Positions 10,123 through 20,000 of a DNA stretch of 20,000 nucleotides are shown one piece after another. The notes under the pieces were generated by a model. The model was not told the origin of the DNA. It made no database searches and worked only from the letters and a program-made list of their open reading frames with translations. The stretch lies in IMG/VR virus record IMGVR_UViG_3300043469_001223, one strand, 5' to 3'. The stretch is from an uncultured virus (IMG/VR IMGVR_UViG_3300043469_001223). Its lineage: Duplodnaviria > Heunggongvirae > Uroviricota > Caudoviricetes. Numbering within the stretch: the stretch's first letter is position 1; every line of letters begins with the position of its first letter. The position numbers and the translations under genes are program-made.

Positions 10123-10151
10123 TTGACAGACATAAATAGAAGCAGTACAAT
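10123..10151 (+). promoter_or_regulatory. Sigma70 promoter P1 of the tRNA array
   Basis: TTGACA-17nt-TACAAT. Confidence 0.75.
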
Positions 10152-10210
10152 AGAGACTAGTTAGGAAGAGAAGTTGTTAAAAACTTTTTGTTCAAAAGAA
10201 CAAATAAGGG

Positions 10211-10239
10211 TTGACAACAATGCTAAATAACTGTATAAT
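10211..10239 (+). promoter_or_regulatory. Sigma70 promoter P2 of the tRNA array
   Basis: Perfect TTGACA-17nt-TATAAT. Confidence 0.85.
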
Positions 10240-10298
10240 TAGAACATACACTGCAATAAGGTAGTGTATGTAACAAAAGGTTTTAAAGAGAAAACAAA

Positions 10299-10445
10299 AT
10301 GCAATCGTCCAATAGACATCAACAATTTAATACGATGCCCAAACAGGTAGGTGTAATAGCCTGCGGTTGGTTATCGATTAATGCGGGAAGTCTATCATAT
10401 GATCGTACACCAGAGATTTCTAGGGTCCGGAGGACTGTCGTGTAA
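10299..10445 (+). CDS. Putative attenuator leader peptide, 48 aa
   Basis: MQSSNRHQQFNTMPKQVGVIACGWLSINAGSLSYDRTPEISRVRRTVV; lies between promoter and terminator and contains the antiterminator strand. Confidence 0.6.
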   Translation: MQSSNRHQQFNTMPKQVGVIACGWLSINAGSLSYDRTPEISRVRRTVV

Positions 10446-10470
10446 CACACAAGTTAACACAACAAACTTC

Positions 10471-10509
10471 AAGGACCCTAGGATTAAAAACCCTGGGGTT
10501 TTTTGTTTT
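10471..10509 (+). terminator. Intrinsic terminator (attenuator)
   Basis: GGACCCTAGG-9nt-CCTGGGGTTT hairpin running into TTTTTTGTTTT. Confidence 0.8.
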
Positions 10510-10521
10510 CCGCAAGGAAGA

Positions 10522-10671
10522 ATGACAGATTTGAAGAGACAAGCTGAGTTTACAAAAGCGCATACTTTAACTAAACAAGATCTTCGCAAGATGATTTTGG
10601 AAAAGTTACAACGTGCAACTGCGTATTACGAAGCAAGTAGGAAGCGAGAGATTGCTCAAGGGCGGTCGTAG
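10522..10671 (+). CDS. Hypothetical 49-aa basic protein, first gene after attenuator
   Basis: AAGGAAG SD; MTDLKRQAEFTKAHTLTKQDLRKMILEKLQRATAYYEASRKREIAQGRS. Confidence 0.55.
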   Translation: MTDLKRQAEFTKAHTLTKQDLRKMILEKLQRATAYYEASRKREIAQGRS

Positions 10672-10783
10672 ATCGCAAAGTGTAATATAGTACGGGAACG
10701 AGGCCCGGGGAACGCACTTAAAACATGTTCTAAACGGGCGGACTAGTGGATGGCTTATCCTTATGTGGATAAAAAAATACTAG

Positions 10784-10856
10784 TTATTAAAGCAAATTGG
10801 TACCTGCTGACTCTGAATCAGAACAGGACGCATAGCGTAACAGTTTGTTTTAATAA
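10784..10856 (+). ncRNA. Stem-enclosed RNA with Gln(CUG)-type anticodon stem-loop
   Basis: TTATTAAAGCAAATTG/CAGTTTGTTTTAATAA stem; inside CTGA-CTCTGAA-TCAG. Confidence 0.55.
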
Positions 10857-10885
10857 GCACTTTCGAAAGAGAGTGTTAACAATTT

Positions 10886-10974
10886 GGAGCTTGTCCCCCA
10901 TTGCCAGCTGTAACCTGGTAGCCATTATTAAGTGGGGTGGCTGGCAAGAGGTTCAATTCCTTCAGGCTCCACCA
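10886..10974 (+). tRNA. Atypical tRNA-Tyr(GUA) lacking a D-arm
   Basis: 8-bp acceptor GGAGCTTG/CAGGCTCC, loop CTGTAAC, long variable arm, GGTTCAATTCC, ACCA. Confidence 0.6.
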
Positions 10975-10981
10975 ATTTTAT

Positions 10982-11057
10982 CTCGCATTCGGTTAGCGGC
11001 TATGCCACCTGGTTTGGGGCCAGGATTTCGAAGGTTCGAGTCCTTCATGCGAGACCA
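10982..11057 (+). tRNA. tRNA-Pro(UGG)
   Basis: Cloverleaf, loop TTTGGGG, CCA. Confidence 0.9.
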
Positions 11058-11066
11058 AGTTTAAAT

Positions 11067-11158
11067 GGAAAGTAATGCAGCGGGGTTGGTCCTGCGACCA
11101 GCCTTGAAAACTGGGTTCTCAGAAATGGGATGGGGTTCGACTCCTCTGCTTTCCGCCA
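11067..11158 (+). tRNA. tRNA-Ser(UGA)
   Basis: Loop CTTGAAA, long variable arm, GCCA. Confidence 0.88.
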
Positions 11159-11164
11159 AGACAA

Positions 11165-11193
11165 TTGACAAATTCTACATAAGATTGTATAAT
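11165..11193 (+). promoter_or_regulatory. Sigma70 promoter
   Basis: TTGACA-17nt-TATAAT. Confidence 0.8.
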
Positions 11194-11201
11194 TACATTA
11201 T

Positions 11202-11317
11202 GCGACCGTAAGTGGAATATGGCAGACCTCCCGTTATGCTCATAGCATAGGTCAGGGGAAGGGGCACATAACATAGTTACCGTGCTCTTGTAGGTTCGAG
11301 ACCTACCGGTCGTACCA
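11202..11317 (+). tRNA. Oversized (116 nt) tRNA-like gene, Leu-type body, CAU loop on extended arm
   Basis: Acceptor GCGACCG/CGGTCGT-ACCA, T-arm GTAGG-TTCGAGA-CCTAC, TATG-CTCATAG-CATA hairpin. Confidence 0.55.
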
Positions 11318-11321
11318 GTTT

Positions 11322-11384
11322 TAGGATCAGTTCAGCAAACTTAAAAACTTTTTTATTATTCAAAAAAACCAAAGTTGATCCTGT
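11322..11384 (+). ncRNA. TAGG/CAGCAA family RNA, copy A
   Basis: TAGGATCA..CAGCAA..TGATCCTG; T6/A6 hairpin with 7-nt loop ATTATTC. Confidence 0.65.
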
Positions 11385-11392
11385 TTTATTAT

Positions 11393-11467
11393 GTATCCCT
11401 AGTGTCAGCGGCAGCACGCCGGTCTCCAAAACCGTTAGGCTTGGTTCAAATCCAAGGGGGTATGCCA
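11393..11467 (+). tRNA. tRNA-Trp(CCA)
   Basis: Loop CTCCAAA, GCCA. Confidence 0.88.
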
Positions 11468-11471
11468 GTTT

Positions 11472-11529
11472 TAGGATGCGTCCAGCAAATCAAAAAATTC
11501 AACTTTTAATTGAAAAATAAGCATCCTGT
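11472..11529 (+). ncRNA. TAGG/CAGCAA family RNA, copy B (Lys UUU anticodon stem-loop)
   Basis: TAGGATGC..CAGCAA..TTCAA-CTTTTAA-TTGAA..GCATCCTG. Confidence 0.7.
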
Positions 11530-11536
11530 TTTTTGT

Positions 11537-11610
11537 TCCCGGATTGTGTAATGGTAGCACAACAGACTTTGACTCTGTTAGCCTAGGTTCGATCCCTAGT
11601 CCGGGTGCCA
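11537..11610 (+). tRNA. tRNA-Gln(UUG)
   Basis: Loop CTTTGAC, GCCA. Confidence 0.9.
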
Positions 11611-11633
11611 ATATTTTGTTAGACTTCTTAGGT

Positions 11634-11704
11634 GTGGCTATAGTGTAATGGTAGCACTACATGTTGTGACCTTGTCAGTACGGGTTCAAATCCCGTTAGT
11701 CACC
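11634..11704 (+). tRNA. tRNA-His(GUG), no encoded G-1 or CCA
   Basis: Acceptor GTGGCTA/TAGTCAC, loop TTGTGAC, C73 followed by CCT. Confidence 0.82.
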
Positions 11705-11719
11705 CCTAAGCAGTTTATT

Positions 11720-11751
11720 CCTCTTGTAGTTAAATGGTATAACAATCGCTT
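11720..11751 (+). pseudogene. Orphan 5' half of a tRNA
   Basis: CCTCTTG-TA-GTTA-AATGGTA-TAAC-A-ATCGC-TT, with no T-arm or 3' acceptor strand following. Confidence 0.65.
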
Positions 11752-11764
11752 TCCTGGCGAGCGT

Positions 11765-11772
11765 TATAAATA
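11765..11772 (+). promoter_or_regulatory. T4-like late promoter for the endonuclease
   Basis: TATAAATA then AGGAG SD and ATG 11789. Confidence 0.65.
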
Positions 11773-11788
11773 CTTGTAGGAGAACACT

Positions 11789-12190
11789 ATGAGTATATCA
11801 AACGAAAAAGGTGAAATAGGAGAAGCAGCATTTGTGCTCGTTTCTGCCAAAAGAGGATATTGGACTGGCAAAATGCCACAAGGTTGTCCTTATGATTATG
11901 TGTTAGATAGACACGACGGTAAACTTTTACGAATTCAAGTTAAGTTTAGATCGTTAGAAAGTAACGGAATAGTTACAATTAAACTATCTCAAAACACATT
12001 TACAAATAGAGTTTCTTACAATGAAAGTAACATCGATTATATTGCAGTCTATGTAAATGAATTAGATAAAGTATATCTCGTTCCTATTGCAGAAATATGC
12101 GATGTAAAAGAAGTTAAACTGCGATGTGTAGAATCAACAAAAAGAAAAGATAAAAACTCTCGTATAATAACAGAATACGCAGAGTGGTAA
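11789..12190 (+). CDS. PD-(D/E)XK putative homing endonuclease (PDDEXK_5 / I-Ssp6803I-like)
   Basis: KGEIGE..PYDYVLD..RIQVK..Y..IDYIAVY..VYLVP motif order. Confidence 0.8.
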   Translation: MSISNEKGEIGEAAFVLVSAKRGYWTGKMPQGCPYDYVLDRHDGKLLRIQVKFRSLESNGIVTIKLSQNTFTNRVSYNESNIDYIAVYVNELDKVYLVPIAEICDVKEVKLRCVESTKRKDKNSRIITEYAEW

Positions 12191-12195
12191 TTTAT

Positions 12196-12270
12196 GGCCA
12201 CGTAACTCAGAGGCAGAGTACCGTCTTGATAAGGCGGGAGTCGACATTTCGAAATTGTCCGTGGCTACCA
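12196..12270 (+). tRNA. tRNA-Ile(GAU)
   Basis: Loop TTGATAA, ACCA; T53-T61 in place of G53-C61. Confidence 0.85.
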
Positions 12271-12277
12271 ATTTTAT

Positions 12278-12356
12278 CTGTGTGTAATGTCAGTCAGGTC
12301 AGACGGCCGGCCTTGGAAGTCGGAGGTCGCAGGTTCGAATCCTGCCACACAGACCA
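12278..12356 (+). tRNA. tRNA-Pro(UGG), A37 variant
   Basis: Loop CTTGGAA, ACCA. Confidence 0.85.
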
Positions 12357-12362
12357 GTTTAT

Positions 12363-12439
12363 GCATCGGTGACAGAGCGGCCAATGTAGCGGATTGCAAA
12401 TCCGTCCAGTCGTGGGTTCGAGTCCCACCCGATGTTCCA
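12363..12439 (+). tRNA. tRNA-Cys(GCA)
   Basis: Loop TTGCAAA, TCCA. Confidence 0.9.
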
Positions 12440-12446
12440 GTTTATT

Positions 12447-12522
12447 GCCCTTGAAGCCTTTAATGGATGAGGTCCTGTCTTGTAAGCAGGGGAAGTCGGT
12501 TCGATTCCGGACTGGGGCACCA
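12447..12522 (+). tRNA. tRNA-Thr(UGU)
   Basis: Loop CTTGTAA, ACCA; irregular T/acceptor stems. Confidence 0.8.
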
Positions 12523-12529
12523 ATACAAT

Positions 12530-12605
12530 GCAACTTTAGCTGATGTGGTCATAGCGGTGGTCTGAAGAGCCATTGAAGTAGGTTCGATCCCTACAGGTTG
12601 CACCA
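12530..12605 (+). tRNA. tRNA-Phe(GAA), G37 variant
   Basis: Loop CTGAAGA, ACCA. Confidence 0.85.
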
Positions 12606-12612
12606 ATTTTAT

Positions 12613-12688
12613 CCTTGAGTTAAGCGGGGCCGTATACACCCTTGCCAATAGTTAGTAATGTGTACTGCGACATACACCTCGAGGGCCA
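12613..12688 (+). ncRNA. tRNA-sized RNA with acceptor stem and CCA but non-canonical arms
   Basis: CCTTGAG/CTCGAGG-GCCA, 76 nt, GTGTA-CTGCGACA-TACAC in T-arm position. Confidence 0.55.
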
Positions 12689-12695
12689 AGTTTAT

Positions 12696-12769
12696 GCGTG
12701 GTTCGTTTAATGGTAAGATCACTGGCTTCCACCCAGTAGTTAAGGGTTCGATTCCCTTACCCCGCACCA
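12696..12769 (+). tRNA. tRNA-Gly(UCC), A73 variant
   Basis: Loop CTTCCAC, ACCA. Confidence 0.85.
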
Positions 12770-12772
12770 GTT

Positions 12773-12836
12773 TAGGATACTTACAGCAAACCAAAATATT
12801 TCACTTTTTGGCTGTGAAAAGCAAACAGTATCCTGT
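12773..12836 (+). ncRNA. TAGG/CAGCAA family RNA, copy C (UUG-centred loop)
   Basis: TAGGATACT..CAGCAA..TTTCAC-TTTTTGGCT-GTGAAA..AGTATCCTG. Confidence 0.68.
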
Positions 12837-12880
12837 TTAATAGTGTTGTTAAAATACAACAAAAATAGTTGCAAAGACTA

Positions 12881-12952
12881 TTGACAAGGAGGTAAAACCT
12901 TGCTATAATTAACACATACACTAAGCAATTAGATGTAAATGTTCTTTAAAAA
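12881..12952 (+). promoter_or_regulatory. Sigma70 promoter with downstream hairpin and boxA-like site
   Basis: TTGACA-17-TATAAT (12881-12909); CTAA-GCAA-TTAG; TGTTCTTTAAAAA (12940-12952). Confidence 0.78.
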
Positions 12953-12968
12953 TTTACAGTATAAGAAG

Positions 12969-13081
12969 TTCTTATACACATACACACAAATGCTTAGGCC
13001 AAGCAGATAGAGGTGGTATCTAGCTGGACGAGAAGTCCAGTTGGCAGGTTCGAGTCCTGTGAGTGTGTAGTTGTATAAGAA
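12969..13081 (+). ncRNA. tRNA-like RNA with long variable arm inside extended stem, no CCA
   Basis: TTCTTATACA/TGTATAAGAA; arms GCTT/AAGC, AGATA/TATCT, AGCTGGAC/GTCCAGTT, GCAGG-TTCGAGT-CCTGT. Confidence 0.6.
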
Positions 13082-13085
13082 TTTT

Positions 13086-13162
13086 ACTTCGTTCGTCTAC
13101 GTGGTTTAGGACGCTAGCCTTTCAAGTTGGAAAAACGGGTTCGAGTCCCGTACGGAGTACCA
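13086..13162 (+). tRNA. tRNA-Glu(UUC)
   Basis: Loop CTTTCAA, ACCA. Confidence 0.88.
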
Positions 13163-13165
13163 AGT

Positions 13166-13264
13166 TAACAACACTCAACGCACTGTAGGATGGCATTCAG
13201 TCTCCCTGCCAGCGAGGGATGAGAGTGGCAGGCATAACTGGTTAATGTTATGCTTGTGTTATTA
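13166..13264 (+). ncRNA. Unidentified structured RNA
   Basis: TAACAACAC/GTGTTATTA closing stem; TCCCT/AGGGA, CTGCCA/TGGCAG, GGCATAAC/GTTATGCT. Confidence 0.45.
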
Positions 13265-13269
13265 GTTTT

Positions 13270-13345
13270 GCCACAGTAGTCCTCTGGGTAGGGCACCGGA
13301 TTGTCTATCCGATTTAGGCGGGTTCGATTCCCGTCTGTGGCGCCA
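13270..13345 (+). tRNA. tRNA-Asp(GUC), U37
   Basis: Loop TTGTCTA, GCCA. Confidence 0.85.
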
Positions 13346-13351
13346 AGTTAT

Positions 13352-13438
13352 GGAGATGTAGGAAAATTGGTAACCCCAGTGGACTGTAAATCCGCCGCCC
13401 GAAAGGCACTACTGGTTCGACTCCAGTCGTCTCCACCA
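13352..13438 (+). tRNA. tRNA-Tyr(GUA)
   Basis: Loop CTGTAAA, variable arm, ACCA. Confidence 0.9.
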
Positions 13439-13445
13439 AGTTAAT

Positions 13446-13520
13446 GGTCCTGTCATATAGTGGTTATTATACCGGCCTGTCTAGTCGGATATCGGGGTTC
13501 GATTCCCCGCAGGATCGCCA
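13446..13520 (+). tRNA. tRNA-Asp(GUC), U37
   Basis: Loop CTGTCTA, GCCA. Confidence 0.88.
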
Positions 13521-13528
13521 AAATTTAT

Positions 13529-13607
13529 TCCGTGAAATCCAAGCATGGTGCAAGGACTTGACTGTTAATCAATGATTAGGTGAGTTCGATCCTCACACAC
13601 GGAGCCA
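13529..13607 (+). tRNA. tRNA-Asn(GUU)
   Basis: Loop CTGTTAA, GCCA. Confidence 0.85.
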
Positions 13608-13616
13608 ATACAATTT

Positions 13617-13691
13617 GGGGGCAGCAGAGGGCTGCGGCGTTGCCTTGCAAGCATCGTGACTAGAGGGGTTCGATACCCCCGGCCTCCACCA
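13617..13691 (+). tRNA. tRNA-Ala(UGC), reduced D-arm
   Basis: Loop CTTGCAA, G3-U70, ACCA. Confidence 0.75.
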
Positions 13692-13699
13692 AACATTTT

Positions 13700-13775
13700 G
13701 CCACAATAGCTCCAATGGTAGAGCAGCGGATTGAAAATTCGTGTGTTACTGGTTCGAGTCCAGTTTGTGGCACCA
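13700..13775 (+). tRNA. tRNA-Phe(GAA)
   Basis: Loop TTGAAAA, ACCA. Confidence 0.9.
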
Positions 13776-13838
13776 AACAAGGGCCGTGAGATAATATCAA
13801 GACGATCGGCGCTGGAGCACCTACCCAGCACAAATTTT

Positions 13839-13899
13839 TAGGATAGCAACAGCAAAATCAAAAATTTCACTGTTAATGAAACCAAAAATGCTATCCTGT
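13839..13899 (+). ncRNA. TAGG/CAGCAA family RNA, copy D (Asn GUU anticodon stem-loop)
   Basis: TAGGATAGCA..CAGCAA..TTTCA-CTGTTAA-TGAAA..TGCTATCCTG. Confidence 0.7.
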
Positions 13900-13906
13900 T
13901 TTATTT

Positions 13907-13981: not shown

Positions 13982-13988
13982 AGTTAAT

Positions 13989-15449: not shown

Positions 15450-16940
15450 ATGAATGTTATTATTATACAAACAATTAGCGATTATCGGGGCGCCGCTCCT
15501 AGATCAATTGGGGGTCACCAATTAGCTTGGTATTTAAGACTCTTTGGTTATACAGTACAGGTTATAAATTATTCTGAACCAATTTTTACATTGGATAAAG
15601 TAAATGCACTGTTTGAAAAATTTGTAACAGATGAAACCAAAGTTATAGGCCTTGGAGGAATTTTATTAGAAGCTAACGATGTATTCTTTTCTATATTCAG
15701 TTCAGCAATTAAACAACTTAAAACAAAACATCCAAATTTAAAAATAATAGCCGGTGGCCCATCTGTTGGTATAATTAAAGGAAAATTAAAAAAAACACTT
15801 GATTATTATTTTACAGGTCATGCTGAAAATACAATGTTACAATTTTGCAATTGGATTTTTAAAAAAGGTCCACAGCCATTTGTCGAAATAGGTGCAGACG
15901 GTTACAAAATTGTAAAAGAATCTTCGTATCAAAGTAATGAAGGATTTTCAATTGAGCAGTGTAATTTTAGGTGGCATGACAGTGATGCTATACAGCCAAA
16001 TGAAGCATTGCCGTTAGAAACAACCAGGGGATGCATTTTTAAGTGTAAATTCTGTCAATATCCGTTAATTGGAAAAAATAAAAAAGATTTCCTTAAACCG
16101 ATGGAAAATATAAGAGATGAGTTACTTGACAATTACGAAAGATTTGGAACAACGAATTATTATATTTTAGACGATACATTTAATGCAGACACCGAAAGAT
16201 TGGAAGAATTTGCCAAAATGGTATCATCCTTACCTTTTAAAATTAAATATGCAACTTATTTAAGATTAGATTTAATTGAGGCTCATCGTCATACTGAAGA
16301 TATGTTATTGGAAAGCGGTCTTTATGGAGCTTTTTTTGGAATAGAAAGTTTTAATAAAGATGCATCTGCTTTGGTAGGAAAGGCATTTAGCGGAAAAAAA
16401 GCCAAAGACTATTTGCCTCATTTGTTACAGGACAGATGGCAGGGAAAAGTAAAAGAACATCTTAGTTTTATCGCAGGCATTCCTCCAGAAACATTAGATG
16501 ATTTAAAAGAAACTCATAACTGGTGTGTCGATAATAAAATAACATCCTGGAAAATAATTCCCTTATTACTTAATAAACCTGATACTTCGGTATTCACTAG
16601 TGAGTTTGAACGTAATGCAGAAAAATATGGATTTGAAATAATACAGGTATTGCCCGAGTCTTACGCTATTGGTAAGCGTCTCTGGAGACAAACTTGGTGG
16701 AAGCATTCATCAGGTCTTACATTTTTAGATGTAGTAAAATGGACAAATTTGCTAACTGAAAGCGCGGCCCCGCATGTTAAAAGAGGCGGCTGGAACGCAG
16801 TTGAAGTCCTACAATTTGGATACACTGTTGAAGAAATAGATAGACTGCGATGGGGCGAATACAACTTAGACAATGAATGGCAAAATAGAGTTCACTTGTT
16901 TGTACAAACGTATTATAATGATCTCATGTCTCTAAAATAA
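15450..16940 (+). CDS. B12-binding-domain-type radical SAM protein
   Basis: KIIAGGP..GHAE N-domain, ETTRGCIFKCKFC, YILDDTFN, FFGIES; ATG at 15450 after ATAAATA. Confidence 0.88.
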   Translation: MNVIIIQTISDYRGAAPRSIGGHQLAWYLRLFGYTVQVINYSEPIFTLDKVNALFEKFVTDETKVIGLGGILLEANDVFFSIFSSAIKQLKTKHPNLKIIAGGPSVGIIKGKLKKTLDYYFTGHAENTMLQFCNWIFKKGPQPFVEIGADGYKIVKESSYQSNEGFSIEQCNFRWHDSDAIQPNEALPLETTRGCIFKCKFCQYPLIGKNKKDFLKPMENIRDELLDNYERFGTTNYYILDDTFNADTERLEEFAKMVSSLPFKIKYATYLRLDLIEAHRHTEDMLLESGLYGAFFGIESFNKDASALVGKAFSGKKAKDYLPHLLQDRWQGKVKEHLSFIAGIPPETLDDLKETHNWCVDNKITSWKIIPLLLNKPDTSVFTSEFERNAEKYGFEIIQVLPESYAIGKRLWRQTWWKHSSGLTFLDVVKWTNLLTESAAPHVKRGGWNAVEVLQFGYTVEEIDRLRWGEYNLDNEWQNRVHLFVQTYYNDLMSLK

Positions 16941-16976
16941 ACATTTAGATTTGATTCCTAGTGATAACACAAAAAT

Positions 16977-17050
16977 GCTCTTGTAGTACAATGGTAGTAC
17001 ACTGTCTTGGTACGACAGCAATCAAAGTTCGATTCTTTGCTTGAGCACCA
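16977..17050 (+). tRNA. tRNA-Thr(GGU)
   Basis: Loop TTGGTAC, ACCA. Confidence 0.85.
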
Positions 17051-17070
17051 AAAATATTTTTAAATACCTG

Positions 17071-17139
17071 TTGACACACACTGAGAAAGACAGTATAATT
17101 TATACATACGCTGCTAATAACAGCACTGTTCTTTAAAAA
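17071..17139 (+). promoter_or_regulatory. Sigma70 promoter with downstream hairpin and boxA-like site
   Basis: TTGACA-17-TATAAT (17071-17099); GCTG/CAGC hairpin; TGTTCTTTAAAAA (17127-17139). Confidence 0.78.
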
Positions 17140-17156
17140 TGTAAAGTTAGTATTTT

Positions 17157-17240
17157 GCGAGAGTGGAGAAATGGTATACTCAGCAGACTTAAAATCTGCC
17201 GCCGAAAGGCATACGGGTTCGAGTCCCGTCTCTCGCACCA
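17157..17240 (+). tRNA. tRNA-Leu(UAA)
   Basis: Loop CTTAAAA, variable arm, ACCA. Confidence 0.92.
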
Positions 17241-17360
17241 TTAATTGAATCCTTTGCAAGCACAGAGGTTTGATCATACGTTATGTAACCTATTCAATAA
17301 ACCGTCAACTCGAGTAAAGCGTGTTGAGGATAGGCATATAGTGTAGAGGATTCAACTAAT
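17241..17360 (+). ncRNA. Unidentified structured RNA
   Basis: TTGAATCCTTTGCA/TGTAGAGGATTCAA closing stem; CCTATTC/GGATAGG inside. Confidence 0.5.
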
Positions 17361-17368
17361 GGAAATTT

Positions 17369-17458
17369 GGTGCGGTCCTATAATGGTATTAGAGCGGATT
17401 GCTAATCCGTCGCTCGGCGTAATCCGGGTTCTGAGTTCGAGTCTCAGTCGCACCGCCA
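17369..17458 (+). tRNA. tRNA-Ser(GCU)
   Basis: Loop TTGCTAA, long variable arm, GCCA. Confidence 0.9.
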
Positions 17459-17467
17459 AACATACAT

Positions 17468-17559
17468 GCCAGCGAGACTTGGTAGTCAGAGAGGCCTTAT
17501 AGACCTTTTAGCGCCAGATTAGCGTTCTTGAGAGGGTTCGATCCCCTCCGCTGGTACCA
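17468..17559 (+). tRNA. Atypical tRNA with UAU anticodon, mini D-arm and long variable arm
   Basis: GCCAGCG/CGCTGGT-ACCA, GACT-TGGT-AGTC, loop CTTATAG, AGCGC/GCGTT arm. Confidence 0.7.
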
Positions 17560-17568
17560 ATGATTGAT

Positions 17569-17645
17569 GCGCCTATAGCTCAGTTGGTCAGAGCAGAGGA
17601 CTCATAATCCTTTGGTCCTAGGTTCAAGTCCTAGTGGGCGCACCA
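17569..17645 (+). tRNA. tRNA-CAU (probably Ile2)
   Basis: Loop CTCATAA, ileX-like body, ACCA. Confidence 0.85.
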
Positions 17646-17662
17646 AGTTATTAAAATAGAGG

Positions 17663-17691
17663 TTGACAGGATTATAAATATCCTGTATAAT
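17663..17691 (+). promoter_or_regulatory. Sigma70 promoter with nested TATAAATA late promoter
   Basis: TTGACA-GGAT-TATAAATA-TCCTG-TATAAT. Confidence 0.8.
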
Positions 17692-17699
17692 AAAAATTT

Positions 17700-17783
17700 G
17701 CCCCGGTGGTGTAATGGTAGCCACGCTGGTCTTAGAAGCCAGTGCCGAGAGGCGTGTCGGTTCGAGTCCGACCTGGGGCACCA
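17700..17783 (+). tRNA. tRNA-Leu(UAG)
   Basis: Loop CTTAGAA, variable arm, ACCA. Confidence 0.92.
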
Positions 17784-17866
17784 TATTAAAACACATACAG
17801 ATCCGCCCTCTAGTAGGGGAGATAGCGACTAGCGTTGAAGGACTGTTTAAATGTGTTTTAATATGG
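17781..17866 (+). ncRNA. Stem-enclosed RNA
   Basis: Perfect 16-bp CCATATTAAAACACAT/ATGTGTTTTAATATGG. Confidence 0.55.
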
Positions 17867-17939
17867 GCTGATAGTGATAATGGGAGCACAGTGGCTTTGC
17901 AAGCCTCGGGTGGGAGTTCGATCCTCCCTCGGTCCACCA
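17865..17939 (+). tRNA. tRNA-Ala(UGC)
   Basis: Loop TTTGCAA, G3-U70, ACCA. Confidence 0.88.
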
Positions 17940-17960
17940 TAAAATTTTTTAAGGAATAAA

Positions 17961-18134
17961 ATGAGAGCAAGAACAGGTTCAACTTTTAGGTTGAGTAAAA
18001 GAGCAAAGACTATGATAGCATTGATGAGTTTTAAGAACGATCAAGACCGTCATGGATTCAAAAATGCAATGATAGATGCTCAAGTGGCTGCGAACATTGT
18101 TCCGCGATCCTCTAAAGAGCGAGACGCAAAGTAA
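17961..18134 (+). CDS. Hypothetical 57-aa basic protein
   Basis: AAGGA SD; MRARTGSTFRLSKRAKTMIALMSFKNDQDRHGFKNAMIDAQVAANIVPRSSKERDAK. Confidence 0.7.
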   Translation: MRARTGSTFRLSKRAKTMIALMSFKNDQDRHGFKNAMIDAQVAANIVPRSSKERDAK

Positions 18135-18141
18135 AGTATAT

Positions 18142-18217
18142 TCCCTGGTAGCTCAGCGGTAGTAGCAGCAGACTGTTAATCTGTTGGTCGCAAGTTCGAT
18201 CCTTGCCCGGGGAGCCA
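18142..18217 (+). tRNA. tRNA-Asn(GUU)
   Basis: Loop CTGTTAA, GCCA. Confidence 0.92.
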
Positions 18218-18244
18218 AATTTTTTAAACCAACGAAAGTAATAG

Positions 18245-18475
18245 ATGATTAAAGTTATTAAAGTTCCCTTTTCTCCACAGAACATCGACACAGACAAATG
18301 TGTCGAAGCCGTGGGCAATAGATTTGATCTAGTTCTGATTGCCAGTGCTCGAGTTCGCGAACTGCGACGTGGACATGCTAAACAAGTTAGCGGAACCAAC
18401 AGTGCCACTATTACTGCCTTGCAAGAAATTGAAGCAGGTAAAATTGGTAGAGAGTATCTTAAAAAGGTTCGGTAA
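18245..18475 (+). CDS. rpoZ: RNA polymerase omega subunit homologue
   Basis: VGNRFDLVLIASARVREL..TALQEIEAGKI matches the omega signature. Confidence 0.88.
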   Translation: MIKVIKVPFSPQNIDTDKCVEAVGNRFDLVLIASARVRELRRGHAKQVSGTNSATITALQEIEAGKIGREYLKKVR

Positions 18476-18741
18476 TGTCAAAAGGTTCAAGAGCTCGTCC
18501 GTTTAGCGTTAGCCAGAATACATTTGCTAACAACTATGACGCTATTTTTGGAAAGAAAGATATGCAAGTAAGAGTACAAGAAAATGCAGATGAGATTGGA
18601 AAATGCGGTTGTGGTCGTAGTCCGACTGGTAAGTGTGTCGGTTGGCATGGTCTAACAGAAGCTGACTTTCAATCAAAGCTAGCATCATATCTAGCAGATG
18701 AACAGTCAAAGAATGTAAGTGATTCCACTCAGGGCGGTTAA
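18475..18741 (+). CDS. Small protein with CDGSH-type Fe-S motif
   Basis: CGCGRSPTGKCVGWH; TAATG overlap with rpoZ. Confidence 0.7.
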   Translation: MSKGSRARPFSVSQNTFANNYDAIFGKKDMQVRVQENADEIGKCGCGRSPTGKCVGWHGLTEADFQSKLASYLADEQSKNVSDSTQGG

Positions 18742-18750
18742 ATATATTGC

Positions 18751-18825
18751 GCCCTGTTAGCACAGTGGCAATGCGCCGCTCTTGTAAAGCGGAGATCGTC
18801 TGTTCGATTCAGACACGGGGCACCA
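18751..18825 (+). tRNA. tRNA-Thr(UGU)
   Basis: Loop CTTGTAA, ACCA. Confidence 0.88.
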
Positions 18826-18831
18826 AGTTTT

Positions 18832-18894
18832 TAGGTTAATTACAGCTATCAAAAATATGGCGACTGCTAGGTCATTAAACTAGTATTAACCTGT
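18832..18894 (+). ncRNA. TAGG/CAGCAA family RNA, copy E (CT-GCT-A loop)
   Basis: TAGGTTAAT..CAGCTA..ATGGC-GACTGCTAG-GTCAT..ATTAACCTG. Confidence 0.65.
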
Positions 18895-18900
18895 TGAAAA

Positions 18901-19102
18901 CCCGTCTTACTATTTCTACGTAACGAAATAGCGTCTCTGTAACGATAGACCAGAGGGTACACTAGGACCTGACCTCACAGTCCCTATTTAAGGGATACTG
19001 GAAACTGCCTAGGGTGAGGATTAACAGCCTTTCCAGAAGAAGAAAATGTTATGGACGTAGCAACAGACCAGTTTAGGGCTCATGTGGTGTGAGTAGCTAG
19101 AC
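18901..19102 (+). ncRNA. Unidentified pseudoknot-rich RNA region
   Basis: Crossing pairings CTAGG/CCTAG, CCTCAC/GTGAGG, CTGGAAA/TTTCCAG plus flanking hairpins. Confidence 0.5.
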
Positions 19103-19211
19103 ACTTTATTGAAACGCATTGTGGAGAGCACTGTGTAGATTGGGAAGGTTTGATTCCGACTCACTACATCACTCGGTATCCTGCGGCCGCAACAGTGTGT
19201 TTCAATAAGGT
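19103..19211 (+). ncRNA. Stem-enclosed RNA with T-loop-like hairpin
   Basis: TTATTGAAACGCATTGT/ACAGTGTGTTTCAATAA; GG-TTTGATT-CC. Confidence 0.55.
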
Positions 19212-19212
19212 A

Positions 19213-19335
19213 ACTTTATTAAAATATATTCTTTGTCTACGTAGCCCAAACCCGGGGGAGCCTTGCAAAGGAAATGTGCCTAGCACACGGTACAACAAGC
19301 ATAAGACACTTGTTGGGAGTATGTTTTAATAAAGT
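19213..19335 (+). ncRNA. Stem-enclosed multi-hairpin RNA
   Basis: ACTTTATTAAAATATATTC/GAGTATGTTTTAATAAAGT; CC-TTGCAAA-GG inside. Confidence 0.55.
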
Positions 19336-19337
19336 AT

Positions 19338-19411
19338 GCGGGGTTCGTATAGTGGTAATACCTGAGCCTTCCAAGCTCATGCTGAGAGTTCGATTCTCTT
19401 ACCCCGCTCCA
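19338..19411 (+). tRNA. tRNA-Gly(UCC)
   Basis: Loop CTTCCAA, TCCA. Confidence 0.9.
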
Positions 19412-19418
19412 TATTTTT

Positions 19419-19494
19419 GCCTGGTTGCGCAGAGAGGTTATGCATCTCCTTTACACGGAGAACGATGTCAGTTCGAGTCTGACACCAGGTACCA
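19419..19494 (+). tRNA. tRNA-Val(UAC)
   Basis: Loop TTTACAC, ACCA. Confidence 0.88.
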
Positions 19495-19501
19495 TTTAAA
19501 T

Positions 19502-19579
19502 CGGAATGTAGCGCAGTCTGGTTAGCGCATCGCGTTTGGGACGCGAGGGTCGTAGGTTCGAATCCTACTATTCCGACCA
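19502..19579 (+). tRNA. tRNA-Pro(UGG)
   Basis: Loop TTTGGGA, ACCA. Confidence 0.92.
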
Positions 19580-19646
19580 TAAATACAAGAAAGAATTCAC
19601 CATGGCACACGGTGTATAATAGGATAAGTAGTGTGGCAAAGAATAT

Positions 19647-19720
19647 AGCGGGCAGGGCGGCCACCACTCCAGTCTCATAAGCTCGGAGCATCCCAGGTTC
19701 AAATCCTGGGCCCGCATCCA
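19647..19720 (+). tRNA. Atypical tRNA-CAU (initiator-like 1-72 mismatch, reduced D-arm)
   Basis: AGCGGGC/GCCCGCA-TCCA, loop CTCATAA, GGTTCAAATCC. Confidence 0.7.
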
Positions 19721-19724
19721 ATTT

Positions 19725-19842
19725 TAGGATACATGCAGCAACGTCTTAAATGACATGTTGGTTCGATTCCAACTCCACGCTTTTGCGTAGATCGCTCAAT
19801 GGTAGAGCAATGGCTTCCAAGCCATCGAAAAAGGTATCCTGT
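19725..19842 (+). ncRNA. TAGG/CAGCAA family RNA, copy F, containing circularly permuted tRNA-Gly-like domain
   Basis: TAGGATAC..CAGCAA..T-arm, looped acceptor stem, D-arm, anticodon arm..GTATCCTG. Confidence 0.72.
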
Positions 19843-19976
19843 TTTATTTTGTTATTCCGGACGCCCTGAAAGGGGAGGTGGTATCGAGCAGTGCGGCAGT
19901 ATAGCTGCCATGGCGTCGTGAGGTTGTAGAACAATAAACTGATAAAATCTACAATATAACAAATGGTTTGACCATT

Positions 19977-20000
19977 TAGGTTCTTTTCAGCAATCTTATT
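19977..20000 (+). ncRNA. TAGG/CAGCAA family RNA, copy G (cut by window end)
   Basis: TAGGTTCTTTT-CAGCAA with the same spacing as other copies. Confidence 0.5.

What the first reader, a model, noticed from the sequence alone, without database searches (positions are those of the whole stretch)
10123..20000. Array may be an integrated, inducible translation-rescue locus
Inference from co-location: two ribosome-sensing switches, a complete and redundant tRNA set, two families of tRNA-fragment RNAs, several non-canonical tRNA-like genes, boxA-like sites and rpoZ are all on one strand. Together they suggest sense (leaders), replace (variant tRNAs) and distract (mimics) functions against tRNA-targeting defences rather than simple codon supplementation.
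Basis: inference. Interest (0 to 1): 0.7.

Follow-up and report, generated by a model that had tools for sequence, protein, structure and literature searches.

The report
Phage tRNA island with Y-like RNAs
A large lake-water phage carries a full set of tRNA genes interleaved with a previously undescribed family of small RNAs that display tRNA-like or anticodon-like parts and that most likely partner with the phage's own Ro60-like RNA-binding protein.

Summary
On the + strand, 10123-20000 holds 38 ARAGORN tRNAs covering all 20 amino acids, about 8 degenerate tRNA-like genes, an rpoZ gene, two boxA-like sites and two conserved translated leader ORFs. Seven consensus sigma-70 early promoters mean most of the array is constitutive, not inducible.

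The "tRNA-fragment/mimic" RNAs are one conserved family. Each has a 7-bp closing stem (AGGAUnn/nnAUCCU), a CAGCAA/A-rich internal loop and a variable top. The top is an anticodon-stem-loop look-alike (mostly Lys-UUU, Thr-UGU, Arg-UCU) or a permuted tRNA-like domain as in bacterial YrlA.

I found 198 distinct copies in this genome and 139 related viral loci. Nearly all lie in tRNA arrays, always on the tRNA strand. The same scaffold sits directly upstream of a DUF2828/DUF7788 gene, in this genome and in 73 of 76 protein-anchored loci. The predicted fold of that protein matches Ro60.

Best reading: an early-expressed tRNA island combined with a phage Ro60-like/Y-like RNA system. Decoy or rescue action against tRNA nucleases is compatible but untested. 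This is a new variant of a known kind.

The parts
10123..10239 (+). Two tandem sigma-70-type early promoters (10123-10151, 11 of 12; 10211-10239, 12 of 12)
   Evidence: The same perfect consensus recurs about 35 times in the 208-kb record.
10299..10445 (+). Conserved 48-aa ORF (leader A)
   Evidence: Six homologous sequences show synonymous changes and an in-frame 6-nt indel. No Pfam or NCBIfam family.
10417..10512 (+). Attenuator-like structure. A long hairpin (10417-10427 pairs with 10473-10483) has a 3' arm that overlaps the 5' arm of an intrinsic terminator (CCCUAGG...CCUGGGG followed by a U-tract).
   Evidence: The fold has z = -6.3. Pairing is kept with compensatory changes in L034 and L075.
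10522..10671 (+). Conserved 49-aa ORF downstream of the terminator
   Evidence: no family hit
10886..11158 (+). Low-scoring tRNA-like gene (Tyr-GUA-like, 10886-10974), tRNA-Pro (10982-11057) and a Ser(UGA)/Sec-like type II tRNA-like gene (11067-11158)
   Evidence: (tRNA-Sec model 33.9 bits, below its gathering score of 47). The 10886 element is conserved in 10 loci.
11165..11193 (+). Perfect early promoter
11201..11317 (+). Long (about 115 nt) tRNA-like RNA with T-arm, acceptor stem and CCA
   Evidence: Homolog in L055.
11323..11382 (+). Scaffold RNA H1 (AGGAUCA...UGAUCCU)
11473..11527 (+). Scaffold RNA H2. Its top is an anticodon-stem-loop look-alike, UUCAA-CUUUUAA-UUGAA (Lys-UUU type).
11714..11757 (+). 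5' half of a tRNA-Ile(GAU) gene that is intact in relatives. This is a true gene fragment.
11789..12190 (+). PD-(D/E)XK endonuclease ORF beside the broken tRNA-Ile gene (likely a homing endonuclease)
   Evidence: Pfam PDDEXK_5 7e-19
12613..12688 (+). 76-nt CCA-ended RNA with a 7-bp acceptor-like stem but no T-loop motif
   Evidence: Read from the sequence. Conserved in L029.
12774..12834 (+). Scaffold RNA H3
12881..12952 (+). Perfect promoter (12881-12909) followed by a boxA-like site TGTTCTTTAAAAA (12940-12952)
   Evidence: 22 distinct related contexts.
13840..13897 (+). Scaffold RNA H4. Its top is UUUCA-CUGUUAA-UGAAA (Asn-GUU type loop).
13989..14066 (+). Cloverleaf tRNA-like gene with a G3.U70 pair and a non-canonical anticodon loop (GCAACCC, no U33)
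14070..14278 (+). Larger scaffold-like RNA (UUUGUAAG..CAGCAAG ... CUUACAAA) with a T-arm and a GGAA-capped acceptor-like hairpin. Very abundant in RNA libraries.
   Evidence: Conserved in 18 loci. RNA contigs 14128-14228 and 14123-14228 have depth 930 and 1263 with 0 differences.
14290..14437 (+). Perfect promoter (14290-14318), Shine-Dalgarno site, mini-ORF AUG AAA CGU UCA GGU AAA CGA UAG (14348-14371) and two hairpins abutting tRNA-Lys(CUU)
14845..15001 (+). Conserved non-tRNA spacer RNA of unknown kind
   Evidence: 11 loci at 80-89% identity
15438..16940 (+). B12-binding (class B) radical SAM methyltransferase-like ORF inside the array
   Evidence: Homologs in 5 array loci.
17071..17139 (+). 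Perfect promoter (17071-17099) followed by the second boxA-like site (17127-17139)
17663..17691 (+). Perfect promoter
18245..18475 (+). rpoZ (RNA polymerase omega) homolog, 76 aa
   Evidence: Present in 9 related array loci. 473 protein clusters.
18833..18892 (+). Scaffold RNA H5 (AGGUUAA...UUAACCU)
18893..19337 (+). Conserved non-coding stretch of unknown kind. Part of it is abundant in RNA libraries.
   Evidence: 11 loci. Depth peak in the bin 18706-19036. No Rfam match.
19726..19840 (+). Scaffold RNA H6 with a permuted tRNA-like domain (T-arm, loop-closed acceptor stem, D-arm) plus an extra anticodon-like hairpin. YrlA-like architecture.
   Evidence: Rfam YrlA 29.3 bits, full length, below the gathering score of 69. 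Fold.
19978..20000 (+). Start of scaffold RNA H7 (runs to 20093, outside the window), also with a permuted tRNA-like domain
10982..19720 (+). Span of the 38 canonical tRNA genes (ARAGORN default)

Best explanation
The region is the early-expressed stable-RNA island of a large uncultured lake-water phage.

Transcription (inferred): host sigma-70 RNA polymerase starts at seven consensus promoters. Two units carry rrn-like boxA leaders, and the phage encodes its own omega subunit. The products are polycistronic precursors.

Processing (inferred from position): host tRNA-processing enzymes cut the precursors into two products. The first is a complete, partly redundant tRNA set that supplies or replaces host tRNAs. 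The second is at least eight small RNAs built on one scaffold.

The scaffold (shown): a 7-bp closing stem and a CAGCAA/A-rich internal loop. The variable top is an anticodon-stem-loop look-alike or a permuted tRNA-like domain.

The partner: the same scaffold family is encoded directly upstream of a gene whose predicted fold is Ro60-like (synteny and predicted fold are shown). I therefore infer that the scaffold is that protein's binding site and that these RNAs are Y-RNA analogues, forming RNPs that present tRNA-like parts. Binding itself is not shown.

Likely role (inferred): tRNA or RNA quality control or turnover during infection, possibly including capture of tRNA-directed enzymes.

Feedback (inferred): two translated leaders add local, translation-coupled control to two sub-units. 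The rest of the array is constitutive early.
For: Array and promoters:
- 38 tRNAs covering 20 amino acids.
- Six perfect promoters and one 11-of-12 promoter on the + strand, of the phage-wide early type.

Scaffold family:
- 198 distinct elements. Stem positions 6 and 7 pair in 97% and 95% of them, using four pair types, against 46% and 41% after shuffling partners.
- 179 of 187 lie within 1.5 kb of tRNAs, all on the tRNA strand and none opposite. 103 of 165 start within 10 nt of a tRNA 3' end.
- 51 of 115 short copies carry a CUNNNAA hairpin, against a shuffle mean of 0.36. Loop types: UUU 23, UGU 9, UCU 5.
- The mimic stems covary and are AU-rich, unlike the genuine phage tRNA-Lys stems.

Ro60-like partner:
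- In this genome a perfect promoter, three scaffold RNAs (163, 237 and 40 nt) and a 465-aa DUF2828+DUF7788 ORF lie in a row.
- The AlphaFold2 model has pLDDT 95.7. Its 13 best PDB matches are all Ro60/TROVE structures, with E from 1e-8 to 1e-4 and TM 0.46-0.63.
- In 80 loci chosen by the protein alone, scaffold-like elements number 246 on the gene strand and 28 on the opposite strand. 73 of 76 loci have one ending within 1 kb upstream, and 46 of 76 within 40 nt.
- The gene and the elements also co-occur in the isolate phages RSP15, S13, BUCT-ZZ01 and a Felixounavirus. T4 has neither.

Precedent and expression:
- Thermus phage phiLo Ro60 binds two Y-like RNAs encoded upstream of its gene (PMC12135203, passages).
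- RNA-library contigs cover the non-coding RNAs at high depth, for example 930-1263 at 14123-14228.
Against: - No binding data exist. The link to the Ro60-like protein rests on synteny and analogy.
- The scaffold lacks the GNCGAAN0-1G/CGAA Ro-binding motif of known Y RNAs. It scores only 27-34 bits against Rfam YrlA, whose gathering score is 69.
- Pfam TROVE does not hit the genome.
- In this genome the gene lies about 22 kb from the array copies.
- Vibrio phage ValKK3 has the gene but no detectable element within 5 kb.
- My regex detector gives about 10% opposite-strand hits, 28 against 246.
- The loci were selected by the motif itself, and related phages are not independent samples.
- The RNA evidence consists of assembled contigs, which cannot show RNA ends, strand or level.
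- The record is only 58% complete by CheckV, and the host is unknown.
Confidence: 0.6

Rival explanations
1. The locus is a sense/replace/distract system against tRNA-targeting defences. The leaders sense stalled ribosomes, the variant tRNAs replace cleaved host tRNAs, and the anticodon-loop mimics act as free decoys for anticodon nucleases, with no need for a Ro60-like partner.
For: - The mimic loops are dominated by Lys-UUU (23), Thr-UGU (9), Arg-UCU (5) and Asn-GUU (2) among 51. These overlap the PARIS AriB targets Lys(UUU), Thr(UGU) and Asn(GUU) (PMC12409363, passages).
- Four mimic stems reproduce the U36-A-A-U-C-A41 sequence around the AriB cut site.
- Phage tRNAs are shown to defeat PARIS and retron effectors in T5 (PMC11464382 and PMC11555353, abstracts in the listing).
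- The mini-ORF with two AAA codons sits before the tRNA-Lys genes in 12 of 17 distinct contexts.
- The attenuator-like leader A is conserved.
Against: - Seven consensus early promoters argue against induction.
- The leaders control only two sub-units.
- The conserved scaffold, and its position at the start of the Ro60-like gene, are left unexplained by a free-decoy model.
- The host and its defence systems are unknown.
- The AriB rules come from E. coli.
- Many tops are not anticodon-like: 64 of 115 short copies lack the CUNNNAA hairpin, and larger modules of 143-255 nt exist.
Confidence: 0.25
2. An ordinary codon-supplementing tRNA array. The extra elements are decaying tRNA pseudogenes, homing-endonuclease debris and spacers with no function of their own.
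For: - The phage prefers A/U-ending codons (GC3 33%), and the tRNA set is rich in U34 anticodons.
- One fragment really is debris of a broken tRNA-Ile gene next to an endonuclease ORF.
- Phage tRNA clusters are common (PMC6409571, listing only).
Against: - The scaffold sequence and its pairing are conserved, with covariation, across 198 elements.
- The anticodon-type loops are kept while their stems covary.
- Nearly every spacer has homologs in related arrays.
- RNA contigs show high depth on non-tRNA elements.
- A full 20-amino-acid set is more than codon bias requires.
Confidence: 0.08
3. The scaffold is a processing or termination punctuation signal. It marks where host RNases cut, or where polymerase stops, between tRNA blocks, and its link to the Ro60-like gene reflects only shared operon processing.
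For: - The elements occupy tRNA slots, starting 4-6 nt after a CCA end and ending just before the next tRNA.
- The closing stem is followed by GUU(U).
- H3 sits at the end of a transcription unit, just before the promoter at 12881.
- Earlier notes on other phages read tRNA mimics as cutting marks.
Against: - The tail after the stem is usually not a U-tract; the consensus is CCTGTT.tatt.
- tRNA-Trp is flanked by two elements with no promoter between them, so they cannot be efficient terminators.
- Ordinary tRNA-tRNA spacers in the same array need no such element.
- Punctuation does not explain the conserved CAGCAA loop or the selected anticodon-like tops.
Confidence: 0.07

Closest known systems
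Thermus phage phiLo Ro60 with its Y RNA-like RNAs Yrl1 and Yrl2 (PMC12135203; PDB 9KOP, 9L5Y)
   Same: A phage-encoded ring-shaped Ro60-type protein (HEAT repeats plus a vWA domain), with small RNAs encoded directly upstream of its gene. Those RNAs have a 5'-3' closing stem and a large internal loop. 9KOP and 9L5Y are among the best fold matches (paper passages).
   Different: - Here the protein belongs to Pfam DUF2828/DUF7788, not TROVE.
- The conserved RNA motif is CAGCAA, not CGAA.
- The family has a dozen or more members per genome, most of them scattered through a tRNA array, and many carry anticodon-loop look-alikes.
- Binding, and any PNPase complex, are untested here.
Bacterial YrlA Y RNAs with Rsr (Rfam RF02553; Chen et al. 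2014, PMC4201824)
   Same: Two window elements (19726-19840 and 19978-20093) have the YrlA order: T-arm, loop-closed acceptor stem and D-arm, all inside a long closing stem. They align to the model over its full length.
   Different: - The score of 29.3 bits is below the gathering score of 69.
- The GNCGAAN0-1G motif is absent.
- No TROVE gene was found.
- An extra anticodon-like hairpin is present.
- Most family members have no tRNA-like domain at all.
Phage T4 tRNA cluster with small stable RNAs rnaC and rnaD and the segB homing endonuclease (NC_000866, 70.9-72.5 kb)
   Same: tRNA genes are co-transcribed with non-tRNA stable RNAs of unknown function, with a homing endonuclease gene inside the cluster.
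   Different: - T4 has 8 tRNAs.
- Its rnaC and rnaD lack the CAGCAA scaffold.
- T4 lacks the Ro60-like gene.
Phage T5 tRNAs that defeat PARIS (AriB) and retron tRNases (PMC11464382, PMC12409363, PMC11555353)
   Same: Phage-encoded Lys(UUU), Thr(UGU), Asn(GUU) and Tyr tRNAs are present here too. The anticodon types of the mimics overlap the AriB target set.
   Different: In T5 the full-length variant tRNAs do the rescuing. No anticodon-stem-loop decoys or Ro-like partner are described in the passages I read. Protection is untested here.
rrn-type boxA antitermination leaders and trp-type leader-peptide attenuators of bacteria (recalled textbook knowledge)
   Same: - A boxA-like 13-mer sits about 30 nt downstream of two promoters, preceded in relatives by a small hairpin.
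- A translated leader ORF overlaps mutually exclusive antiterminator and terminator hairpins.
   Different: - Here they stand before phage tRNA genes.
- Leader A has no run of regulatory codons.
- The mini-ORF leader B has no terminator.
- Binding of Nus factors and any switching are untested.
- The E. coli boxA consensus used for comparison is recalled, not retrieved.

Membership tests
Phage tRNA gene array | Many co-oriented tRNA genes clustered in a virus genome | tested here: met
   38 tRNAs in 8.7 kb, all on the + strand, in an IMG/VR virus record
Y RNA / YrlA (Rfam RF02553) | Covariance-model score at or above the gathering score (69 bits) | tested here: not met
   29.3 bits for 19726-19843. 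27.6-34 bits in relatives.
Y RNA / YrlA (Rfam RF02553) | Conserved Ro60-binding motif GNCGAAN0-1G (CGAA) in the stem/internal loop | tested here: not met
   The family consensus is TTTAGGATnn.T.CAGCAA / AAA...ATCCTGTT. The motif is defined in PMC4201824 and PMC12135203.
Y RNA / YrlA (Rfam RF02553) | 5'-3' closing stem flanking a large internal loop, with a modular second domain | tested here: met
   A 7-bp stem with covariation. Variable tops.
Y RNA / YrlA (Rfam RF02553) | At least one member per genome with a tRNA-like domain (T-arm, closed acceptor stem, D-arm) | tested here: met
   19726-19840 and 19978-20093
Y RNA / YrlA (Rfam RF02553) | Encoded next to a Ro60 ortholog | tested here: met
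   Three family members lie directly upstream of the Ro60-like ORF in this genome. The same holds in 73 of 76 protein-anchored loci. The array copies in the window itself lie about 22 kb away.
Y RNA / YrlA (Rfam RF02553) | Physical binding to Ro60 | not testable with these tools
   No RNA-protein prediction or assay was available.
Ro60 / TROVE proteins | HEAT-repeat ring plus vWA domain fold | tested here: met
   AlphaFold2 pLDDT 95.7. The top 13 Foldseek PDB matches are all Ro60/TROVE structures, followed by vWA domains. This is a predicted structure, not a solved one.
Ro60 / TROVE proteins | Match to Pfam TROVE (PF05731) | tested here: not met
   No match in the genome. The ORF hits DUF2828 and DUF7788 instead. 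No PDB hit by sequence at E<=1.
RNA polymerase omega (RpoZ) | Score above the curated cut-off of the equivalog model | tested here: met
   TIGR00690 36.9 bits against a cut-off of 23.6. Aligns to E. coli-type omega residues 6-64.
rrn-type boxA antitermination leader | boxA-like 13-mer shortly downstream of a strong promoter of a stable-RNA operon | tested here: met
   Two exact copies at 12940 and 17127, against 1.8 expected matches at up to 2 mismatches. 22 distinct related contexts, 9 of which had a strict TTGAC-N16-19-TAnAAT promoter within 90 nt upstream.
rrn-type boxA antitermination leader | NusB/NusE binding and read-through of terminators | not testable with these tools
   No assay available.
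Leader-peptide transcription attenuator | Translated leader ORF overlapping mutually exclusive antiterminator and terminator hairpins | tested here: met
   ORF 10299-10445. Hairpin 10417-10427/10473-10483 against terminator 10476-10512, with compensatory changes in relatives.
Leader-peptide transcription attenuator | Run of regulatory codons for the sensed amino acid | tested here: not met
   No codon run in the 48-aa ORF, read. The mini-ORF MKRSGKR has two AAA and two CGN codons but no terminator.
Defence-evading phage tRNAs (T5 type) | Phage copies of the targeted isoacceptors carrying substitutions that block cleavage, and measured rescue | not testable with these tools
   The isoacceptors are present. 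The host tRNAs and defence systems are unknown.

The most novel reading that the evidence does not exclude
Many tRNA-rich phages, from this lake phage to Felixounaviruses of E. coli, run a programmable RNP platform. A Ro60-like protein binds a CAGCAA scaffold, and each of a dozen or more scaffold RNAs displays a different bait: a host-type anticodon stem-loop, a tRNA body or a larger fold. The baits capture, mislead or hand over to host nucleases the enzymes that act on tRNAs, including anticodon nucleases of anti-phage defence. The phage's own tRNA set, made early from consensus promoters, keeps translation running.
Probability: 0.2. Interest if true: 0.9.

Novelty: new variant of a known kind. 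Interest (0 to 1): 0.72.

Why it matters
Phage tRNA arrays are usually read as codon supplements or, recently, as spare parts against tRNA-cutting defences. The RNAs between the tRNAs are ignored.

Here those RNAs form a large, conserved family that is present in RNA libraries, is absent from Rfam, and did not turn up in my literature searches. It is tied by gene order to a very common phage protein. Homologs occur in 705 isolate phage records, annotated only as 'RNA-binding protein', 'Ro-like' or 'DUF2828'.

If the link holds, it gives that protein family an RNA partner. It extends Ro60/Y-RNA biology to many cultured phages, including coliphages that grow on E. coli K-12. It also makes testable whether phages use anticodon-loop mimics against tRNA-directed enzymes.

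Tried and rejected
- Rfam: no family other than tRNA reached gathering, either at gathering threshold or at E<=5 on the window or E<=0.5 on six related loci. The large 163-255-nt modules had no hit at all.
- Pfam searches of the own genome for TROVE, CCA-adding enzyme (PolyA_pol), Rnl2-type RNA ligase and RtcB found nothing. The record is only 58% complete, so this shows little.
- megablast and blastn of the array against isolate phages found only tRNA matches. The scaffold in isolates was found only after anchoring on the protein.
- Leader A as a riboswitch: rejected. The conserved stretch is a 48-aa ORF.
- Scaffold as an intrinsic terminator: rejected, because it has no U-tract consensus and tRNA-Trp lies between two copies.
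- Integron attC-like or transposon-end readings: considered from memory and dropped, because the stems vary with compensation.
- T4 rnaC and rnaD do not share the scaffold.
- MFE folding of the AU-rich short elements gave unreliable tops. I replaced it with a direct hairpin search using shuffles as control.
- Earlier-findings look-ups by place and by sequence returned nothing.
- RNA contigs gave no cover on the ORFs 11755-12085, 15727-16719 and 18044-18374.
- Literature searches for a description of these RNAs or of phage rpoZ found phage Ro60/Y RNA work but nothing on this scaffold, on DUF2828 function or on phage omega. Only open-access papers and preprints are covered.
- Host inference was not attempted beyond noting the lake-water origin. 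18 DNA runs hold at least 95% of the sampled words, and some may be the source sample or one campaign.

Full report
**What the window is.** The window is the reverse strand of bases 83397-103396 of a 207,813-base IMG/VR virus record that CheckV rates 58% complete. Eighteen lake-water DNA runs hold at least 95% of the sampled words of 10100-20000, though some may be the source sample or a single campaign. The nearest isolates for a neighbouring CHASE2-cyclase gene are Methylophilales phage Melnitz (41% identity) and Pelagibacter phage HTVC008M (37%). No isolate phage matches the array at DNA level beyond single tRNAs.

**Checking the observation: tRNAs.** ARAGORN tRNA genes between 10982 and 19720. 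All are on the + strand, with 27 different anticodons covering all 20 amino acids and duplicates for Pro, Thr, Phe, Gly, Glu, Asp, Met and Leu. Rfam puts 33 of them above its gathering score. A further tRNA-Gly(GCC) lies just outside the window at 20254-20327. A T-loop motif occurs 47 times on the + strand, 10 of them outside the ARAGORN calls. With a relaxed threshold ARAGORN adds eight tRNA-like genes. One of these, at 13989-14066, is a clean cloverleaf with a G3.U70 pair but an anticodon loop without U33.

**Checking the observation: rpoZ and boxA.** The rpoZ call is sound. It scores Pfam RNA_pol_Rpb6 1.3e-13 and NCBIfam TIGR00690 36.9 bits against a cut-off of 23.6, and it aligns to residues 6-64 of E. 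coli-type omega in solved polymerase structures. The 13-mer TGTTCTTTAAAAA occurs exactly twice, at 12940 and 17127, each about 30 nt downstream of a perfect promoter. Twenty-two distinct related contexts repeat the arrangement of promoter, small hairpin, boxA-like site and tRNAs. Its likeness to the E. coli rrn boxA is judged against a consensus I recall, not one I retrieved.

**Promoters and the word 'inducible'.** Six perfect TTGACA-N17-TATAAT promoters lie on the + strand at 10211, 11165, 12881, 14290, 17071 and 17663, plus an 11-of-12 site at 10123. The same perfect consensus occurs about 35 times in the record, mostly before small genes of an early-type region. The array is therefore cut into at least six units. 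Each should be read by host sigma-70 polymerase from the start of infection. That argues against induction as the main mode.

**Leader A.** The highly structured stretch 10246-10520 (z = -6.3) is not a riboswitch. In six homologous sequences it holds a 48-aa ORF (10299-10445) with synonymous changes and an in-frame 6-nt indel. The end of this ORF (10417-10427) pairs with 10473-10483. That 3' arm overlaps the 5' arm of an intrinsic terminator ending near 10512. The pairing survives with compensatory changes in relatives, for example GGGUUCU/AGAACCC in L075. This is the layout of a leader-peptide attenuator. By inference, ribosomes finishing the ORF would free the terminator, and failing translation would favour read-through into a second small ORF (10522-10671) and three tRNA(-like) genes.

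**Leader B.** Leader B (14325-14437) carries a Shine-Dalgarno site and the mini-ORF AUG AAA CGU UCA GGU AAA CGA UAG. Thirteen distinct homologs in one alignment and 17 distinct contexts in a pattern scan keep M-K-R...K-R/L-stop. They show synonymous changes, in-frame length variants of 6 to 8 codons and always a UAG stop. Twelve of the 17 are followed within 140 nt by a Lys(CUU) anticodon loop. No terminator follows; the last leader hairpin pairs with the first bases of the tRNA. Translation of both leaders is well supported by comparison. Their action as switches is inference.

**The 'fragment/mimic' RNAs are one scaffolded family.** Seven elements in or abutting the window share the form UUUAGGAUnn-nnn-CAGCAAA...variable top...AAAA-nnAUCCUGUU. 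They lie at 11323, 11473, 12774, 13840, 18833, 19726 and 19978. A larger variant lies at 14070-14278. None is found on the - strand.

Most of these lie in dense tRNA arrays, with up to 37 tRNAs in 12 kb. Across this genome and those loci I collected 198 distinct elements without requiring pairing at stem positions 6 and 7. Those positions pair in 97% and 95% of elements, using four pair types. After shuffling partners the figures are 46% and 41%.

Of 187 elements from an earlier, stricter collection, 179 lie within 1.5 kb of tRNAs. All of these are on the tRNA strand and none is opposite. 103 of 165 begin within 10 nt of a tRNA 3' end. They therefore occupy tRNA slots in the precursors.

**The variable tops.** Among 115 short elements (70 nt or less), 51 carry a hairpin with a stem of at least 4 bp and a 7-nt loop CUNNNAA, the signature of an anticodon loop. 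The mean in 200 shuffles is 0.36. The 'anticodons' are UUU 23, UGU 9, UCU 5, GUA 4, UGA 4, GCU 2 and GUU 2. The mimic stems are AU-rich and covary (UUCAA/UUGAA, UUUGA/UCAAA, UUUCA/UGAAA, UUAGA/UCUAA) while the loop stays fixed. The genuine tRNA-Lys(UUU) genes of the same arrays have GC-rich stems.

Other size classes also occur:
- about 98 nt, holding a D-arm-like hairpin, an anticodon arm and a T-arm without an acceptor stem;
- 107-120 nt, holding a T-arm, a loop-closed acceptor stem and a D-arm;
- 143-255 nt, holding larger folds.

The 107-120-nt class includes 19726-19840 and 19978-20093. The first aligns over the full length of Rfam's YrlA model at 29.3 bits, below the gathering score of 69.

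One real fragment exists as well. 11714-11757 is the 5' half of a tRNA-Ile(GAU) gene that is intact in four relatives. It is broken here beside a PD-(D/E)XK endonuclease ORF, and a second, intact tRNA-Ile follows.

**Expression.** Assembled contigs from four freshwater, estuary or marine metatranscriptome runs (three studies) cover much of the non-coding RNA. The depth is very high at 14123-14228, where contigs of depth 930 and 1263 show no differences. Depth is also high in the bins 18706-19036 and 10431-10761. Contigs cannot show RNA ends, strand or level, and DNA carry-over cannot be excluded. This is therefore a hint of abundant stable RNAs, not proof.

**The partner.** About 12.7 kb upstream of the window, on the same strand, a perfect early promoter is followed by three scaffold RNAs of 163, 237 and 40 nt. 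Thirteen bases later comes a 465-aa ORF. Pfam assigns the ORF DUF2828 (7e-30) and DUF7788 (1.5e-51).

An AlphaFold2 model built from 92 sequences has mean pLDDT 95.7 and pTM 0.92. Its 13 best Foldseek matches in the PDB are all Ro60/TROVE structures, with E from 1e-8 to 1e-4 and TM 0.46-0.63. They are the frog Ro autoantigen with RNAs, human Ro60, Deinococcus Rsr and the Ro60 of Thermus phage phiLo. The next matches are vWA domains. Sequence searches alone do not reach these: Pfam TROVE finds nothing in the genome, and phmmer finds no PDB hit.

Homologs occur in 705 isolate phage records, annotated 'RNA-binding protein', 'Ro-like RNA binding protein', 'vWFA protein' or 'DUF2828'.

**Is the link more than chance?** In the motif-selected loci, the gene is present in 19. 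In 13 of the 18 with the gene start available, scaffold elements lie within 900 nt upstream on the same strand. Eight of these end 10-27 nt before the start codon.

These loci were chosen by the motif itself, so I repeated the test from the protein side. 80 IMG/VR loci were chosen only by similarity to the protein, out of 536 or more. In them a generalized detector finds 246 scaffold-like elements on the gene strand and 28 on the opposite strand. The detector requires a 7-bp stem, a 3-6-nt gap, CAGCWA, a closing strand and a following G. 73 of the 76 loci with at least 400 nt of upstream sequence have an element ending within 1 kb upstream, and 46 have one within 40 nt. The usual order is an RNA of about 163 nt, one of about 230-250 nt, one of about 53 nt, and then the gene. 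39 of the 80 loci hold five or more tRNAs.

**Isolate phages.**
- Ralstonia phage RSP15 has the gene inside its tRNA array, with five elements on that strand.
- Synechococcus phage BUCT-ZZ01 has two elements directly upstream of the gene, one with a CUUUUAC loop.
- Cronobacter phage S13 has one element with a permuted tRNA-like domain.
- The Felixounavirus BPS17W1 has the gene at the head of its 22-tRNA array. Four elements there have a different stem (AGACCnn/nnGGUCU) but keep CAGCAA and the trailing G.
- Vibrio phage ValKK3 has the gene but no element within 5 kb.
- T4 has neither the gene nor a convincing element in its tRNA region.

**How it most likely works.**

Shown:
- the gene content;
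- the promoters as consensus matches;
- the covarying scaffold;
- the anticodon-type loops;
- the synteny with a gene of predicted Ro60 fold;
- the presence of these RNAs in RNA libraries.

Inferred:
- Host polymerase transcribes the units early, perhaps aided by boxA-dependent antitermination and the phage omega.
- Host RNase P and 3' processing release tRNAs and scaffold RNAs from neighbouring slots.
- The scaffold is the binding site of the Ro60-like protein. The minimal copy at the gene's ribosome-binding site would then allow autoregulation.
- The RNPs present tRNA-like or anticodon-like modules.

By analogy with Rsr/Y RNA/PNPase machines and with phiLo Ro60, which binds two upstream Y-like RNAs and host PNPase (PMC12135203, passages; PMC4201824, passages), the system could serve RNA or tRNA quality control and turnover. 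It could also tether or decoy tRNA-directed enzymes.

The overlap between the mimic loop types and the PARIS AriB targets Lys(UUU), Thr(UGU) and Asn(GUU) is suggestive. So is the presence of the U36-A-A-U-C-A41 context in four mimic stems. The rules come from E. coli, however, and the host here is unknown.

The omega homolog's first 15 residues do not align to E. coli omega. A role in changing alarmone control of stable-RNA promoters is my speculation from recalled knowledge.

**Comparison with what is known, and novelty.** Three things are already known: phage tRNA arrays, phage tRNAs that defeat tRNA nucleases (abstracts; passages), and phage Ro60 with Y-like RNAs. Several things appear new:
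- the CAGCAA scaffold family and its size, a dozen or more per genome;
- its home in tRNA arrays;
- its anticodon-loop tops;
- its partner, a DUF2828-type Ro60-like protein common in cultured phages;
- the conserved K/R mini-ORF before tRNA-Lys;
- an omega gene kept inside the arrays, in 9 related loci and 473 protein clusters, with matches in only 8 isolate-phage records, several of which look like host DNA.

The family fails two defining tests for Y RNA/YrlA, the model score and the Ro-binding motif. I therefore file it as working like a Y RNA, not as a member. My searches for prior descriptions cover only open-access papers and preprints.

**Verdict.** The best reading is a constitutive early tRNA island fused with a phage Ro60-like/Y-like RNA system. 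Confidence is 0.6, interest 0.72, and the novelty class is a new variant of a known kind.

Noticed in passing
window 2115-4178 (+): A 687-aa CHASE2 sensor fused to an adenylate/guanylate cyclase domain. It matches phrog_35576 almost end to end (1e-202) and is 41% identical to a gene of Methylophilales phage Melnitz. This is a phage-borne cyclic-nucleotide signalling gene.
   Followed up: partly
window 6-1475 (+): An ORF with an F5/8 type C (discoidin) domain and two curlin repeats, recalling the curli-type genes reported for related marine phages.
   Followed up: no
window 7308-8390 (+) and 15438-16940 (+): Two radical SAM genes. One is a twitch-domain radical SAM protein (NF033640, 180 bits, above its cut-off of 170). 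The other is a B12-binding class B methyltransferase-like protein that sits inside the tRNA array and recurs in 5 related array loci. A role in RNA modification is possible but untested.
   Followed up: partly
window 4272-4634 (-) and 4961-5239 (-): Two paralogous small ORFs of phrog_18771 on the opposite strand. They are the only clear minus-strand genes in the window.
   Followed up: no
G000:C1:114138-116100 (window coordinates about -12727 to -10740): An operon of three scaffold RNAs and the Ro60-like gene, behind a perfect early promoter. The 163-nt and 237-nt RNAs have conserved counterparts in most related loci and no Rfam match.
   Followed up: partly
L145 6857-7099 (Cronobacter phage S13) and L146 6590-6860 (Synechococcus phage BUCT-ZZ01): tRNA-shaped genes with normal acceptor, D and T arms and a CCA end. 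A conserved insert of about 40 nt (…GUAGAAAACGCA…UUC(A/U)GCA…) replaces the anticodon arm. In S13 they are annotated as a 121-nt tRNA-Ser and a 'tRNA-OTHER'. They lie just downstream of the Ro60-like gene and may form a second class of partner RNA.
   Followed up: no
window 17961-18134 and 18475-18741 (+): Two small ORFs flanking rpoZ (57 and 88 aa, the latter with a CGCG...C...C cysteine pattern). Each is conserved in 8 related array loci, and neither hits any family.
   Followed up: partly
   Followed up: no
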